Source: a virus
Taxonomy: Duplodnaviria; Caudoviricetes
Reading direction: 5' to 3' (one strand)
Virus record (IMG/VR): IMGVR_UViG_3300006846_000010
Location: 1 to 64,000 of that record
Length of the DNA: 64,000 nucleotides
The notes below the pieces were generated by a model. It saw only the letters and a program-made list of their open reading frames with translations, was not told the origin of the DNA and ran no database searches. The position numbers and the translations under genes are program-made. Below are positions 2,685-14,050 of this stretch, piece after piece; the stretch's first letter is position 1; each line of letters begins with the position of its first letter.

Positions 2685-2861
2685 GTGAGTGCTGCCGCGG
2701 CGGGTGCGCTGGTACTGGGTCTACTCGTGTTTTACGTCGGTAAAAACCTCGCGCTCGACCGGGCGTCGTCCGCGTTCACCCGGGCGCTCGGCGCGGGTAT
2801 GGTCATCGTGAGCCTGACGACCGGGGTGGTCGTGGTCACCCGGGAGCTGGGTGCGTGGTAG
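2685..2861 (+). CDS. 58-aa two-TM protein
   Basis: Hand-translated MSAAAAGALVLGLLVFYVGK...RELGAW. Confidence 0.55.
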   Translation: MSAAAAGALVLGLLVFYVGKNLALDRASSAFTRALGAGMVIVSLTTGVVVVTRELGAW

Positions 2862-2863
2862 CC

Positions 2864-2892
2864 TAGACACGTGTGGTGATTTACGATATAAT
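2864..2892 (+). promoter_or_regulatory. SigA-type promoter
   Basis: TAGACA-17 bp-TATAAT. Confidence 0.7.
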
Positions 2893-2919
2893 CGAACCAA
2901 CGAACCGGGAGGGTTCACC

Positions 2920-3150
2920 GTGACCGGTAGGCCGCGTCTCTGGGACCTGGACGACCTCGTCGCCGTAGGCGACATCGCGCGTGAGTTTCACGTGCGACCG
3001 GGCGCGGTGGTGAACTGGCAGACGCGCTACGAAGACTTTCCCACACCGGTTCACACGGTAAGCTCCGGGCGGCTGTTCAGCCGTACACAGGTGCTCGACT
3101 GCATGTGCAACCACGGCTACGAGAGCCTGGTCGCTAGGATGAGGAGATGA
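2920..3150 (+). CDS. AlpA/excisionase-like HTH DNA-binding protein
   Basis: LVAVGDIAREFHVRPGAVVNWQTRYEDFPTP; GGGAGG RBS before GTG 2920. Confidence 0.7.
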   Translation: MTGRPRLWDLDDLVAVGDIAREFHVRPGAVVNWQTRYEDFPTPVHTVSSGRLFSRTQVLDCMCNHGYESLVARMRR

Positions 3151-3431
3151 TCACGTTGAAGTTCGACCCGGACGCACTGCCGAACGTCCAGACCGTACTC
3201 AAGCTGGGGCTGCGCGTGGCCGTCGACAACGGTCGTGTTGACTCCTATGAGGCGAGCGTCGCCGGAGCGGTGTTGCTGACGGCCCTCGCCGCCGACCCGT
3301 CGTTCGCCGACGAGTTGGAGACGGCGCTGGGTAAGGACAACGCCGGTGTGGCTAAGACCGCACTTACCGAGCTTACGGACATCACGGACCGGCACGCCCA
3401 GCCGGTCGACCTCCCCAGGCGTGTCGCCTAG
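3147..3431 (+). CDS. hypothetical protein
   Basis: ATGA coupling, GAGGAG RBS, high GC3. Confidence 0.7.
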   Translation: MITLKFDPDALPNVQTVLKLGLRVAVDNGRVDSYEASVAGAVLLTALAADPSFADELETALGKDNAGVAKTALTELTDITDRHAQPVDLPRRVA

Positions 3432-3441
3432 GGGACGCAGA

Positions 3442-3599
3442 CGCCCGTCGTCCAGGGGCGCGCGTCCGTCTTCCCCCGTTGACGAGGACGCGCGGACCGT
3501 CTGACGCGCCGGACCACCGACGTCGGGTCCGAGGTCGCGCGGAGGGTTAGGACACCGGCTAGGTGCCGGAGACCCGGGGTTCGAGTCCCCGGCGGGCGA
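3442..3599 (+). ncRNA. tRNA-like RNA with ~90-nt structured insertion in the D-loop
   Basis: Acceptor CGCCCG/CGGGCG, D-stem GTCC(3450)/GGAC(3550), anticodon stem CCGGC-TAGGT-GCCGG, T-arm CCGGGG-TTCGAGT-CCCCGG; fills an intergenic gap. Confidence 0.7.
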
Positions 3600-3626
3600 C
3601 GACAACGTCGCGTTAGGAGAAGTCTT

Positions 3627-4106
3627 ATGACCAAACCGGTCGATGTGAGTCCGGCGGTAGACGTCACCGCTACCACCGTCGAGGAGTCCCAGGCCAACCG
3701 GGTCCGGATCAACTGGAAACTTCTGGGCCAACTTTACACCAGACCGCACCCGAACCAGAACCACGTTCACGTACGTTGTTGCACCGCCGAGCCGTTAGGT
3801 GTGGGTGAGGTTCTTCAAGAGGCCCTGGCCGCACAGCATCTTCTCGACCTGGCCGGCATCCCACTCGGACGTGGTGATGACCGGGACATCGACGCACGCA
3901 CGTGGCTCGCCGTCGAGCTGATCGGCGGCCTGCGGGAGCGGCTCGGCCGCATCTCTGCTTGGCACTCACAGGAGACCGGTCCGGGTGGTCTGGTTGGCAG
4001 TCTCTGCGCCGAGTGCGGCGAGACGTGGCCGTGTGATACCCGCCGGATGGCCGACGGTACGTACGATAACTCACAGGTTGAGACACGTGACGTCGGCCTA
4101 GGCTAG
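3627..4106 (+). CDS. hypothetical protein with C-terminal Zn-binding motif
   Basis: H...CAECGETWPC motif, AGGAG RBS. Confidence 0.65.
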   Translation: MTKPVDVSPAVDVTATTVEESQANRVRINWKLLGQLYTRPHPNQNHVHVRCCTAEPLGVGEVLQEALAAQHLLDLAGIPLGRGDDRDIDARTWLAVELIGGLRERLGRISAWHSQETGPGGLVGSLCAECGETWPCDTRRMADGTYDNSQVETRDVGLG

Positions 4107-4231
4107 GGTCGGTCCGAGCACGGGTAAGGCAAGGCATCACACGCACGCCCGGGCCGCCGGTCCGGACCCGGTATCGACGGGTTCCGGCCCGGCGGGCGCG
4201 CGAGGGCCCCGGGCCGACCTAGGAGCTTGTC

Positions 4232-5062
4232 CTGTCAACCACCGCTACCCACCACAGACCCCGGCACCTGCGCACCGCGGGACCGCCGCGGGTCCGCGCC
4301 ACGGAGCCCGTCATCCGCTCCCACCGCCGCACCCCGAACCTGCGATCGCACCGGCCGGCCGGGCCCGCCTCGTACCGGACGCGCGGCGTCCTGGCGGTGC
4401 TCCTCCTGGCCGGCGGGTTACTCGCCTCCTCCGGGGTCGCCGGACCCGCCGGTACCGGCACGTCCGAGCGCCCCAGCGCCTCGAGCGTCACGGAACACCC
4501 GCCCTCATCAGGCAACTACGCCCCGGACCACCGGGATGCCGAGGGAGGACGTCCGGAGGTCGTCGAGCTGCGCACGTCGCGCTCCGCGAGACGCGGTCGC
4601 GCGGTCTCCGCCGTGCCGACTCCGCGCCCGGTGCCCGTGACCTCCCGCTGGGTGAGCCCGGTGCTCGGCGGCCGGGTGTCGTCGTGCTACGGTCCTCGGT
4701 GGGGCACGACGCACGAGGGCGTGGACATCTCCGCGCCGTACGGCACGACGATTCGCGCCGTGGGCGCCGGCACCGTCACCCAGGCCGGGTGGCGCTGGTC
4801 CGGCTACGGCTACACCGTGATCGTGCGGCACCTCGACGGCTGGTCCACGTTCTACGCACACGCGTCGACGGTCTCGGTCCGGACCGACCAGCGGGTCGCC
4901 GCGGGGCAGGTGATCGGCCGCGTGGGCGCGACGGGTCGCGCGACCGGGCCGCACCTTCACCTAGGGGTGGCGCGAGCGACCGAGCCGAATGTCGTCATCA
5001 CATCGTTCACGGACCCGGCGCCGTTCCTACGTATTCGCGGGATCGCCGCGGGGTGCGGCTGA
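4232..5062 (+). CDS. secreted M23 family peptidoglycan endopeptidase
   Basis: HEGVD (HxxxD), YAH, TGPHLH (HxH); hydrophobic signal segment. Frame is open back to the stop at 4220; start is either CTG 4232 (after AGGAG) or GTG 4397. Confidence 0.85.
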   Translation: MSTTATHHRPRHLRTAGPPRVRATEPVIRSHRRTPNLRSHRPAGPASYRTRGVLAVLLLAGGLLASSGVAGPAGTGTSERPSASSVTEHPPSSGNYAPDHRDAEGGRPEVVELRTSRSARRGRAVSAVPTPRPVPVTSRWVSPVLGGRVSSCYGPRWGTTHEGVDISAPYGTTIRAVGAGTVTQAGWRWSGYGYTVIVRHLDGWSTFYAHASTVSVRTDQRVAAGQVIGRVGATGRATGPHLHLGVARATEPNVVITSFTDPAPFLRIRGIAAGCG

Positions 5063-12496: not shown

Positions 12497-14050
12497 GTGA
12501 TCGACGCACGCCGGAACCACATGCGCTCGCCGCCTCCGGAGTACGGATCCGCGTACGCGCTGGCCGCCGACATGGTGGACCCACCCAACCTGCGGTACCG
12601 AACCGACCCCGCGGCGTGGGCGACGGAGCGTGCGGGCGTCGAGATCTGGTCGCGCCAGCGTGTCGTGATGGAGTCGGTGCGGGATCATCCCAACACGGCG
12701 GTGAGATCTTGTCACTCCACCGGTAAGAGCTTTGTCTCGGCGCTGATCACATGCTGGTGGCTGGACGTTCACCCGGCGGGTGAGGCGCGCGTCATCACGA
12801 CCGCGCCGACCAGTAAGCAGGTGGACGCCGTTCTGTGGTATGAGATCAACAAGCTGCACACGCGGATCGGCCTGGCCGGCATCTGTCACCTGCGCGACTG
12901 GTACCTGGGCCGGCAGCTCGTGGCGCTCGGCCGGAAGCCGCCAGACCACGAGGAGGCGGCGTTCCAGGGCATGCACGCCAAGTACCTTCTCGTCATCTAC
13001 GACGAGGCGTTCGGCATCCCGAAGAACCTGTGGAACGAGGGGTCGTCGCTGGCCTCGAACGAGTACGCGCGCCAGCTGGCGATTGGCAACCCGGACGGAC
13101 CCGGCGAGTTCGAGAACCGGTGCCGACCGGGATCGCCGTGGAACGTGATCCACATCAGCTACCGCGACACACCCGCGTACAGCGGGGAGCGTGTGTCGCG
13201 TGGTCTGCTGGAGAACCTGATCAGCGAGCGCTGGGTGGAGGAGCGACGTGGCGACTGGGGCGAGGACAGCGCCCTGTTCCAGTCGAAGTGCGAGGGTAAC
13301 TTTCCGGGTCAGGGTGACCCGTTCTCGACGATTCCCCACCGCTGGGTGGCCTCGTGTCGCGTGCTGGAGCTGCCCGAGATCGGAGCGGTCGAGGCGGGGA
13401 TCGACGTCGGTGCCGGCGGGGACCGCACGGTCATTCGCGAGCGGCGGGGACCGCGCGCCGGACGCGAGAAGGTGTTCGTAGACGAGGATCCGATGCGGTC
13501 GGTCGGCAAGCTCGTCGAGAAGATCAACGAGTGGGGTGTCACCCGGGTAAAGATTGACGTGACAGGTATCGGCTGGGGGCTGGCGGGACGGCTGCGCGAG
13601 CTGTCCAGCCGGCACAACTCGGCGGGTGCGCTGCACGGTGACACGACGCACAACGCGGAGGTCGTGCGTGTTAACTTCGGCGCCGGTCCTAGCCCGGGTA
13701 AGGAGAGGCAGTACCTGAATAAGCGTGCCGAGCTCTGGTGGGGCGTCGGTCGCGAGAACTCACGCCTGGGTCTGTGGGACCTCACCGAGGTGGACGACCA
13801 GGTGGTTCACGAGTTGACGGCCCCGCGGTATCAGATCCTGGACTCCTACGGTAAGATTAAGATCGAGCGCAAGGTCGACGCCATTAAGCGCCTCGGCGTC
13901 TCGCCAGACCGCGCGGAGGCGCTGTTACTGGCGTTCTTCGACCCGGGTCACGACGCACCGGGTGTGTCGCCGAGCGTCATGTCAGCGTTCGCGGAGGCCG
14001 ACATCCTGGGTGGGATCTCACCGCAAGACTCGCTGGTCGGAGTTCGATGA
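12497..14050 (+). CDS. terL: terminase large subunit
   Basis: Walker A RSCHSTGKS, TTAPTSKQ, Walker B LVIYDEA, IGNP coupling motif, RNase H-like GIDVG...SPDRAEAL; leaderless TATAGT-6 nt-GTG. Confidence 0.9.
   Translation: MIDARRNHMRSPPPEYGSAYALAADMVDPPNLRYRTDPAAWATERAGVEIWSRQRVVMESVRDHPNTAVRSCHSTGKSFVSALITCWWLDVHPAGEARVITTAPTSKQVDAVLWYEINKLHTRIGLAGICHLRDWYLGRQLVALGRKPPDHEEAAFQGMHAKYLLVIYDEAFGIPKNLWNEGSSLASNEYARQLAIGNPDGPGEFENRCRPGSPWNVIHISYRDTPAYSGERVSRGLLENLISERWVEERRGDWGEDSALFQSKCEGNFPGQGDPFSTIPHRWVASCRVLELPEIGAVEAGIDVGAGGDRTVIRERRGPRAGREKVFVDEDPMRSVGKLVEKINEWGVTRVKIDVTGIGWGLAGRLRELSSRHNSAGALHGDTTHNAEVVRVNFGAGPSPGKERQYLNKRAELWWGVGRENSRLGLWDLTEVDDQVVHELTAPRYQILDSYGKIKIERKVDAIKRLGVSPDRAEALLLAFFDPGHDAPGVSPSVMSAFAEADILGGISPQDSLVGVR

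What the first reader, a model, noticed from the sequence alone, without database searches (positions are those of the whole stretch)
3442..3599. tRNA-like RNA with a two-hairpin insertion in the D-loop, a 5-nt anticodon loop and a 6+6 acceptor/T stack
Seen: all cloverleaf arms pair. Acceptor 3442-47/3593-98, D-stem 3450-53/3550-53 preceded by GGTTA, anticodon stem 3555-59/3565-69, T-arm with TTCGAGT loop. About 90 nt are inserted in the D-loop and fold into two hairpins (CGCGCGTCC/GGACGCGCG 3459-3494; 3505-3541). The anticodon loop is only TAGGT and there is no encoded CCA. Established: canonical tRNAs have 7-nt anticodon loops and a 7+5 stack. tRNA mimics such as tmRNA and bacterial Y RNA exist but have different topology. 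Inference: a non-decoding tRNA mimic, e.g. a decoy for anticodon nucleases or toxins, or an RNase P-processed scaffold displaying an RNA module. Standard tRNA scanners would probably miss it.
Basis: partly seen in the sequence, partly recalled or inferred. Interest (0 to 1): 0.75.

Follow-up and report, generated by a model that had tools for sequence, protein, structure and literature searches.

The report
Interrupted, non-decoding tRNA relic in phage
A soil phage carries, between two genes, a tRNA-derived sequence whose D-loop is stretched by about 89 bases of local repeats and whose anticodon loop is too short to decode; it is most likely a broken tRNA gene, not a proven new RNA tool.

Summary
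The element fills the non-coding gap between two + strand genes of a complete 103-kb, 64% GC phage. ARAGORN and Rfam miss it.

The part from G18 to A73 (3545-3599) is clearly tRNA-derived. Removing about 89 nt in silico gives an ARAGORN tRNA-Pro(AGG) call.

Whether the 5' acceptor and D strand 100 nt upstream belongs to it is only borderline. Strict pairing is expected 0.014 times per 150 nt. By ARAGORN score, 116 of 717 random upstream sequences do as well.

The insert is built from local repeats, including a diverged copy of the element's own anticodon arm. It is not a mobile element.

I found no homologue: not upstream of four homologues of the downstream gene, not in five related phage records, and not in 1.0 Mb searched with a covariance model. 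No RNA data exist. An attP reading is weak, because the phage has no integrase and no matching host tRNA was found.

Two other elements pass the same null cleanly as tRNA genes with ~115-nt inserts. One is in this phage and one in a relative.

Verdict: a lineage-specific interrupted tRNA relic that cannot decode. A function as a tRNA mimic is possible but unsupported. Interest is moderate to low.

The parts
3147..3431 (+). Upstream ORF of 94 aa with no family match. Its stop codon lies 10 nt before the element.
   Evidence: GC by codon position is 0.69/0.43/0.85, which is coding-like. No Pfam or PHROG family.
3442..3448 (+). Acceptor 5' strand CGCCCGT. C1 pairs with G72. T3448 is either pair 7 or U8, depending on the register.
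3450..3453 (+). D-stem 5' strand GTCC, followed by A3454, which corresponds to A14.
3454..3457 (+). AGGG, the first copy of a 4-nt direct repeat that brackets the insert. The second copy is at 3543-3546.
   Evidence: Read directly. Removing one repeat copy with the insert leaves a 7-nt D-loop, AGGGTTA.
3458..3546 (+). Insert of about 89 nt in the D-loop, GC-rich and made of local repeats.
   Evidence: There is no second copy elsewhere in the genome.
3459..3494 (+). Hairpin 1: a perfect 9-bp stem, CGCGCGTCC with GGACGCGCG, and an 18-nt loop.
   Evidence: pair I6, 100% complementary. Pair probability 0.97.
3487..3522 (+). Tandem repeat of 16 nt, 2.2 copies. It overlaps the 14-nt direct repeat at 3483-3496 and 3530-3543.
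   Evidence: 80% matches, score 42. (repeat D2, 13 of 14 identical).
3495..3548 (+). Hairpin 2 of the minimum-free-energy fold. Its base pairs C3497-C3498 with G3545-G3546. The stretch 3483-3513 is a diverged copy of 3530-3570 and so includes a copy of the anticodon arm.
   Evidence: In one search, 39 of 3000 random segment pairs aligned as well.
3545..3549 (+). GGTTA, corresponding to G18, G19, U20, U20a and A21 of the D-loop.
3550..3553 (+). D-stem 3' strand GGAC.
3555..3569 (+). Anticodon-like hairpin: a 5-bp stem CCGGC with GCCGG and the 5-nt loop TAGGT. ARAGORN instead reads a 4-bp stem with the 7-nt loop CTAGGTG and anticodon AGG.
3575..3591 (+). T arm: CGGGG, TTCGAGT, CCCCG.
3592..3599 (+). 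Acceptor 3' strand GCGGGCG and discriminator A. No CCA follows. The trailer CGAC is shared with the phage's tRNA-Glu.
3594..3614 (+). 3' partner of a competing long-range helix. 3434-3443 pairs with 3606-3614, and 3446-3453 pairs with 3594-3601. This helix replaces the acceptor and D stems once flanks are included.
   Evidence: minimum-free-energy fold of 3432-3626. (acceptor probability falls to 0.01).
3627..4106 (+). Downstream ORF of 159 aa, with an AGGAG ribosome-binding site 8 nt before the ATG.
   Evidence: Homologues at 65-75% identity in L064-L067.
2864..2892 (+). Promoter-like site, TAGACA-17-TATAAT, 11 of 12 matches. No terminator-like site lies between it and the element.

Best explanation
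The element descends from a phage tRNA gene and can no longer decode.

Shown:
- The stretch from G18 to A73 (3545-3599) is a tRNA 3' part.
- The anticodon loop is 2 nt shorter than in the closest tRNA.
- About 89 nt of GC-rich local repeats sit where the D-loop should be.
- Those repeats are a 9-bp inverted repeat, a 14-nt direct repeat, a 16-nt tandem repeat and a diverged copy of the element's own anticodon arm.
- A strand that pairs perfectly with the acceptor and D 3' strands lies just upstream, at 3442-3453.

Inferred:
- That upstream strand is the original 5' half, so this is an interrupted gene and not a truncated one.
- The expansion arose by slippage or duplication inside the gene.
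- The element is co-transcribed with the flanking + strand genes.
- If the cloverleaf forms, it would offer RNase P and 3' processing enzymes an acceptor/T-arm helix. Cleavage there would cut the mRNA between the two cistrons.

I take it to be a decaying or neutral relic, with at most a residual role as a processing site.
For: - In-silico removal of the insert gives an ARAGORN call in 109 of 140 deletion variants. The top call is tRNA-Pro(AGG), score 111.8, starting at 3442. The phage's own tRNAs score 116.7, 119.4 and 105.3.
- A covariance model built from the element aligns end to end with ordinary tRNAs of related phages at 15-27 bits.
- The closest tRNA is a tRNA-Arg(CCT) that also starts with C1, in a related phage (L003 17198-17270). 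It shares 38 of 51 aligned columns in the 3' part and 13 of 16 in the 5' part. Its anticodon loop is 2 nt longer.
- The insert is of local origin. It has no second copy in the genome.
- AGGG flanks the insert on both sides. Excision at this repeat leaves a canonical 7-nt D-loop.
- The gap 3432-3626 has flat GC by codon position, 0.72/0.72/0.71, so it is non-coding.
- The same design passes the null cleanly in two other elements. E2 (G000 101757-101945) scores 117.1, reached by 0 of 803 null trials. E3 (related record, 13723-13918) scores 116.4, reached by 0 of 488 null trials. E2 also holds a duplicate of its own 5' half; 25 of 3000 random segment pairs aligned as well.
- Related phages carry 23 and 29 ARAGORN-called tRNAs, while this phage has 3. 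This fits an array that is decaying.
- No homologue of the element exists where the downstream gene is conserved.
Against: - The 5' half is not statistically secure. Random upstream sequence does as well in 116 of 717 trials and in 64 of 309 trials.
- Fold energy is unremarkable, z = -1.65.
- With only 10 nt and 27 nt of flank, the predicted acceptor and D pairing probability falls from 0.99 and 0.76 to 0.01, in favour of a different 17-bp helix. The same collapse happens in 10 of 62 real tRNAs.
- All stems are free of mismatches, which is unexpected for an old pseudogene. It could mean selection for the fold.
- No RNA data exist.
Confidence: 0.5

Rival explanations
1. Only 3545-3599 is tRNA-derived: a 3' fragment left by a deletion or recombination. 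The complementary strand at 3442-3453 is a chance match in GC-rich DNA. The repeats between them are unrelated non-coding or regulatory DNA, for example protein-binding sites upstream of gene 3627.
For: - By ARAGORN score, 116 of 717 trials and 64 of 309 trials with random upstream sequence complete the tRNA as well as the real one.
- Three other 7-mers within 300 nt upstream also pair 7 of 7, or 6 of 7, with the acceptor 3' strand.
- The motif GGWCGCGCG occurs 3 times in 3459-3541, but 13 times in the whole window against 12.3 expected. This is a local cluster, as operator-like sites would form.
- Partial tRNA gene fragments are common in prokaryote genomes (PMC9897764, abstract seen).
Against: - Strict pairing is expected only 0.014 times per 150 nt, and 0.0027 times with A14.
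- With a fixed junction, 17 of 20,000 random 5' pieces score as well.
- The flanking AGGG repeat restores a canonical D-loop.
- Two statistically secure interrupted tRNAs exist in the same phage lineage.
Confidence: 0.22
2. The element is a functional non-decoding tRNA mimic. It would be processed by RNase P and 3' enzymes and stabilised by the tRNA core. It would then act as a decoy for tRNA-directed host toxins, as a scaffold that displays the two hairpins, or as a punctuation signal that separates the two cistrons.
For: - All 21-22 stem pairs are intact.
- U8 (in the 6+6 register), A14, G18-G19, A21 and the T-loop are kept.
- The element fills the intergenic gap exactly, on the transcribed strand.
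- It shares the 3' trailer CGAC with the phage's tRNA-Glu and with E2.
- The phage keeps several other well-folded aberrant tRNA-like elements. One of them, a non-canonical tRNA, is conserved with 2 compensatory pairs in a metagenome relative.
Against: - No homologue was found in 4 loci that keep the downstream gene, in 5 related records, or in 1.0 Mb searched with the covariance model.
- The insert is repeat-derived.
- The phage encodes no Ro60, CCA-adding enzyme or RtcB.
- The fold is not predicted once flanks are added.
Confidence: 0.18
3. The element is a relic of an integration module. The tRNA 3' part would be an old attP core, the repeats would be arm-type recombinase or excisionase sites, and the upstream weakly excisionase-like DNA-binding ORF (2851-3150) would be a leftover partner.
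For: - tRNA 3' parts next to short direct repeats are typical of attP sites. This is recalled knowledge, not from any call.
- ORF 2851-3150 has a weak match to a PHROG DNA-binding family (E = 0.003).
Against: - The complete record has no tyrosine or serine recombinase.
- The 24-nt T-arm and acceptor end has no exact match in one genome from each of 185,579 prokaryote species, nor does the 26-nt version in viral contigs.
- The shortened anticodon loop could not restore a host tRNA.
Confidence: 0.05

Closest known systems
Phage-encoded tRNA genes (Rfam RF00005), in particular the C1:G72 tRNA-Arg(CCT) of a related phage record (L003 17198-17270)
   Same: Acceptor with discriminator A, D stem GTCC, G18-G19, a 5-bp anticodon stem, a 4-5-nt variable loop, the TTCGAGT T-loop and no encoded CCA. 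It shares 38 of 51 aligned columns in the 3' part.
   Different: About 89 extra nt in the D-loop. The anticodon loop is 2 nt shorter. It is not detected by ARAGORN or Rfam.
tRNA gene fragments and pseudogenes in prokaryote genomes (PMC9897764, abstract seen)
   Same: A partial or non-canonical tRNA-like sequence standing outside a working tRNA set.
   Different: Those fragments mostly arise from integrating elements or CRISPR activity. Here there is no integrase, both halves seem to be present, and the disruption is an internal repeat expansion.
Interrupted tRNA genes of archaea (introns at non-canonical positions with a bulge-helix-bulge motif; recalled, plus the listing of a 2026 bioRxiv preprint)
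   Same: An intervening sequence at a non-anticodon position of a tRNA gene.
   Different: The context is bacterial-type: an M23 peptidase, Shine-Dalgarno sites, and a large terminase related to those of actinobacterial phages. The phage has no RtcB ligase. I did not test the bulge-helix-bulge motif formally.
tmRNA and bacterial Y RNA (YrlA)
   Same: Non-decoding RNAs that keep a tRNA-like acceptor/T-arm module.
   Different: tmRNA has G3:U70, a tag reading frame and no D stem. YrlA has a permuted topology and works with Ro60. Here pair 3:70 is C:G. ARAGORN and Rfam give no tmRNA or Y RNA hit. The phage has no TROVE protein.
mascRNA/menRNA tRNA-like RNAs (RF01684)
   Same: Weak structural likeness of 3534-3600, an acceptor-like stem plus a T arm.
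   Different: It scores 17.4 bits against a gathering score of 42.5. That family is eukaryotic, so this is not a member.

Membership tests
Canonical tRNA (RF00005 / ARAGORN) | Detected by the family model at its threshold | tested here: not met
   ARAGORN finds 0 genes in the window. Rfam finds 0 matches at gathering score. No RF00005 match at E up to 10 in 3300-3750.
Canonical tRNA (RF00005 / ARAGORN) | 7-bp acceptor with discriminator, 5-bp T stem and a TTCRANY loop | tested here: met
   3442-3448 pairs with 3592-3598 (6 Watson-Crick pairs and 1 G-U), with A3599 as discriminator. The T arm is 3575-3591.
Canonical tRNA (RF00005 / ARAGORN) | D-loop of 7-11 nt with G18-G19 | tested here: not met
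   G18-G19 are present at 3545-3546, but 96 nt (3454-3549) lie between the D-stem strands.
Canonical tRNA (RF00005 / ARAGORN) | 7-nt anticodon loop with U33 and a purine at position 37 | tested here: not met
   The predicted loop is the 5-nt TAGGT, with stem probability 0.95. The 7-nt alternative, CTAGGTG, has U33 but also U37 and a pair-capable C32/G38.
tmRNA (RF00023) | Model match, G3:U70 and a tag reading frame | tested here: not met
   ARAGORN -m finds no tmRNA in the genome. Rfam gives no hit in the window. Pair 3:70 is C:G.
Bacterial Y RNA (YrlA) | Ro60 (TROVE) partner and RNA ends in the Ro-binding stem | tested here: not met
   No TROVE match in the complete record. No Rfam hit. The ends of this element lie in the acceptor stem.
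attP core in a tRNA gene | A recombinase encoded by the phage | tested here: not met
   PF00589 and PF00239 give 0 matches at E up to 1 in the record, which is rated 100% complete.
attP core in a tRNA gene | Identity to the 3' end of a host tRNA gene | tested here: inconclusive
   No exact 24-nt match in genome contigs. The host is unknown and only exact matches were searched.
Group I or group II tRNA intron | Match to an intron model and adequate size | tested here: not met
   No Rfam match. The insert is about 89 nt.
Miniature inverted-repeat element (MITE) | Terminal inverted repeats, a target-site duplication and several copies | tested here: not met
   The ends share 8 of 10 bases as inverted repeats, and AGGG flanks both sides. 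There is no second copy in the 103-kb genome, and the 3' inverted repeat is itself part of an internal direct repeat. Host genomes could not be searched.
Archaeal bulge-helix-bulge intron | Bulge-helix-bulge motif at both junctions and a splicing endonuclease and ligase in the host | not tested
   No formal motif search was run. The minimum-free-energy fold shows no helix joining the two junctions. The phage has no RtcB. The host is unknown.

The most novel reading that the evidence does not exclude
This phage lineage may make a class of expanded tRNA-like RNAs. Each would keep the acceptor, T-arm and D-arm core, which RNase P, 3' processing enzymes and CCA addition recognise. Each would carry a structured insert of 90-115 nt at the D-loop or D-arm hinge, and would have lost a usable anticodon loop. 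The members would be the target, E2 in the same genome and E3 in a relative. They could serve as stable decoys for host toxins that attack the tRNA acceptor end or elbow, or as tRNA scaffolds that display small RNA modules.
Probability: 0.12. Interest if true: 0.75.

Novelty: new variant of a known kind. Interest (0 to 1): 0.35.

Why it matters
If the relic reading is right, the main lesson is for annotation. Phage tRNA arrays decay through internal duplications, and the products still fold like cloverleaves, so a tidy fold in GC-rich DNA is not evidence of function.

If instead these elements are expressed and processed, they would be the first phage tRNA mimics with a large D-loop or hinge expansion. 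My three literature searches found no described case. The passages I read of a review of non-canonical tRNAs (PMC7609411) list none either. They would bear on the long-standing question of why phages carry odd tRNA-like genes.

Tried and rejected
**Homologue searches**
- The flanking proteins, used as single queries against viral contigs, found no relatives.
- ORF 3147-3431 found none in metagenome contigs.
- ORF 3627-4106 found none in genome contigs and none in GenBank phages.
- blastn of 3300-3750 against GenBank phages gave no match.
- Exact 26-nt and 24-nt patterns from the T-arm and acceptor end found nothing in viral contigs or genome contigs.
- A 23-nt pattern from the conserved non-canonical tRNA found nothing in viral contigs.

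**Synteny**
- The related record G001 keeps the order tRNA array, homologue of ORF 995-1513, M23 peptidase. It has no tRNA-like element between them.
- An alignment of the gap with the regions upstream of the homologues in L066 and L064 was not meaningful.

**Sequencing runs**
- Five DNA holders were listed and no RNA holder.
- Contigs from four runs were laid on 2900-4300. They showed no variant and no joint inside the element, so they gave no covariation and no evidence on expression.

**Statistics that proved uninformative or negative**
- Fold energy against shuffles is not significant.
- A general null that used the 3' parts of real tRNAs was too permissive to be useful: 600 of 1219 trials reached 111.8.
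- A supposed duplicate of the 5' strand at 3463-3474 is not significant: 734 of 3000 random pairs aligned as well.
- No sigma-70-like promoter or terminator lies inside the gap.

Full report
**Context.** The window is the first 64 kb of a 103,486-bp virus record rated 100% complete, with about 64% GC. It is a tailed phage. It has a large terminase 33-40% identical to those of Arthrobacter and other phages and an M23 peptidase. It comes from rhizosphere metagenomes.

The element at 3442-3599 lies in the 195-nt gap between two + strand ORFs, 3147-3431 and 3627-4106. The ORFs show coding-type GC periodicity. The gap is flat at 0.72/0.72/0.71. A strong promoter-like site lies at 2864-2892. No terminator-like site lies between it and the element, so I infer co-transcription with the flanking genes.

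**Observation.** The minimum-free-energy fold of 3442-3599 is the expanded cloverleaf, at -87.9 kcal/mol. Helix probabilities are 0.99 for the acceptor, 0.76 for the D stem, 0.95 for the anticodon stem, 0.84 for the T stem and 0.97 for hairpin 1. The 6+6 and 7+5 registers are about equally likely.

ARAGORN finds nothing in the window, and Rfam finds nothing at gathering score. At E up to 10, Rfam gives only a 17.4-bit likeness to mascRNA, whose gathering score is 42.5.

**Is it a tRNA?** Deleting the insert in silico gives an ARAGORN call in 109 of 140 deletion variants. The best is tRNA-Pro(AGG), score 111.8, starting at 3442. The phage's own three tRNAs score 116.7, 119.4 and 105.3.

A covariance model built from the element alone aligns end to end with ordinary tRNAs of related phages at 15-27 bits. 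The closest is a tRNA-Arg(CCT) in a related record. It also starts with C1:G72 and has the same D stem. It shares 38 of 51 aligned columns in the 3' part and 13 of 16 in the 5' part, and its anticodon loop is 2 nt longer. I therefore regard the tRNA descent of 3545-3599 as secure.

C1:G72, A73, G35 and G36 are the identity set of bacterial tRNA-Pro. This is recalled knowledge, not a tool result. The loop is either 5 nt, or 7 nt with U37 and a pair-capable C32/G38, so decoding is unlikely.

**Is the 5' half real?** The evidence here is weak, and the answer depends on the test.
- With the junction fixed, 17 of 20,000 random 5' pieces score as well as the real one.
- Strict pairing (7 of 7 acceptor pairs, 4 of 4 D pairs) occurs at 80 of 880,024 positions, or 0.014 per 150 nt. 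With A14 required it is 0.0027. I chose this criterion after seeing the sequence.
- A full deletion scan puts the element's own 3' part behind random phage sequence. It reaches 111.8 in 64 of 309 trials with 260 nt upstream, and in 116 of 717 trials with 137 nt upstream and the true halves left out.
- Fold energy is unremarkable, z = -1.65.
- Adding only 10 nt and 27 nt of flank drops the acceptor and D probabilities to 0.01. A 17-bp long-range helix (3434-3453 with 3594-3614) takes over. The same collapse happens in 10 of 62 real tRNAs of these phages, so this counts only mildly against the cloverleaf.

**What the insert is.** It is not a foreign or mobile element. There is no second copy in the genome and no Rfam match. 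It is made of local repeats:
- a perfect 9-bp inverted repeat, which forms hairpin 1;
- a 14-nt direct repeat at 3483 and 3530, 13 of 14 identical;
- a 16-nt tandem repeat at 3487-3522;
- a stretch, 3483-3513, that aligns with 3530-3570 and so includes a diverged copy of the anticodon arm. Only 39 of 3000 random segment pairs align as well.

AGGG stands on both sides of the insert (3454-3457 and 3543-3546). Excision at this repeat leaves a canonical 7-nt D-loop. This is the signature of slippage or duplication inside a gene.

**Parallels.** I scanned all T-arm motifs that ARAGORN does not call. Three of 15 in the six phage records have a deletion solution above 110: the target, E2 (G000 101757-101945, score 117.1) and E3 (a related record, 13723-13918, score 116.4). 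The other 12 score 108.3 or less, or have no solution. None of 22 such motifs in 497 kb of further loci reaches 110.

E2 and E3 pass the null cleanly, at 0 of 803 and 0 of 488 trials. Both have perfect 7-bp acceptors, intact D and T arms, and about 115 nt inserted at the D-arm hinge. E2 holds a second copy of its own 5' half; 25 of 3000 random pairs align as well.

So interrupted tRNA genes produced by internal duplication are real in this lineage. That raises the prior for the target. Two related records, G001 and G002, carry 23 and 29 ARAGORN-called tRNAs, while this phage has 3 plus several aberrant ones. This fits a decaying array.

**Conservation.** I found none.
- The flanking proteins have no relatives in viral contigs.
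- Four metagenome loci keep the downstream gene at 65-75% identity. None has the element upstream. One has ordinary tRNA genes about 340 nt upstream instead.
- The closest syntenic record lacks both the element and its neighbouring genes.
- The covariance model finds no long match with E below 1 in 67 sources totalling 1.0 Mb.
- Metagenome contigs that hold the locus are identical to it.

**Rival readings.**
- An attP core is unlikely. The phage has no recombinase, and no exact match to the 3' end was found in viral contigs or in 185,579 species genomes.
- A Y RNA or a spliced intron gets no support. The phage has no TROVE protein, CCA-adding enzyme or RtcB.
- A functional mimic cannot be excluded. 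All stems are intact, the tertiary-contact bases are kept, and the 3' trailer CGAC is shared with the phage's tRNA-Glu and with E2.

**Literature.** Three full-text searches and the passages I read of a review of non-canonical tRNAs (PMC7609411) turned up no natural tRNA with a large D-loop insertion and no phage case. The abstract of PMC9897764 documents how often partial tRNA fragments are mistaken for genes. Supplements were not consulted.

**Verdict.** The element is an interrupted tRNA-derived sequence that cannot decode and is specific to this lineage. It is most probably a relic (0.5). A truncated fragment with a chance complement (0.22) and a functional mimic (0.18) are the main rivals.

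Noticed in passing
L042 1758-1946 (G000 101757-101945, outside the window): E2 is a 189-nt tRNA-like gene in the phage's tRNA cluster. It has a perfect 7-bp acceptor, an intact D arm and T arm, and an insert of about 115 nt at the D-arm hinge. Removing the insert gives ARAGORN 117.1, reached by 0 of 803 null trials. The insert holds a second copy of the element's own 5' half.
   Followed up: partly
L043 3224-3419 (related record G001 13723-13918): E3 is a 196-nt element of the same design in a related phage. It has a perfect acceptor, a canonical D arm and about 113-117 nt inserted after it. ARAGORN gives 116.4 after removal, reached by 0 of 488 null trials. Rfam instead sees a weak 115-nt tRNA inside it, at 24.4 bits.
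   Followed up: partly
L042 2165-2237 (G000 102164-102236) and L066 698-770: This non-canonical 73-nt tRNA is conserved between this phage and a metagenome relative. It has no linker between the acceptor and D stems, a 6-bp D stem with a 5-nt loop, and a 6-bp anticodon stem. Two pairs change on both sides (2:71 and one anticodon-stem pair). The anticodon is GCG in one and GTG in the other. Rfam gives only 28 bits, to tRNA-Sec.
   Followed up: partly
L042 2265-2360 and 2648-2784 (G000 102264-102359 and 102647-102783): Two further aberrant tRNA-like elements. The 96-nt one has a 7-bp acceptor, a T arm and an overlong branched middle arm. The 137-nt one holds three T-loop motifs between matching acceptor strands. 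They look like rearranged tRNA pieces.
   Followed up: partly
window 3599-3603; G000 101476-101480 and 101945-101949: The tetranucleotide CGAC follows the discriminator in the target, in the phage's tRNA-Glu and in E2. In 6 of the 7 T-arm elements listed, the base after the discriminator is C. This may be a shared 3' processing context.
   Followed up: no
window 3436-3449 and L066 at about 890-910: The 14-mer GACGCAGACGCCCG covers the last bases before the element and its acceptor 5' strand. It recurs upstream of the homologous downstream gene in a metagenome relative, although the regions are otherwise unalignable.
   Followed up: no
window 2864-2892: A near-consensus promoter-like site (11 of 12 matches) lies just inside the listed start of ORF 2851-3150. 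The real start of that gene is probably further downstream.
   Followed up: no
window 3962-4107: A small 2020 run of a coded organism (X5) holds a 146-nt piece of the downstream gene with 2 differences. This may be a clue to the host or to a cultured relative.
   Followed up: no
related records G001 and G002 (L043, L003): Two related records, G001 and G002, carry arrays of 23 and 29 ARAGORN-called tRNAs, while this phage has 3. The arrays sit at different places relative to the terminase gene.
   Followed up: partly
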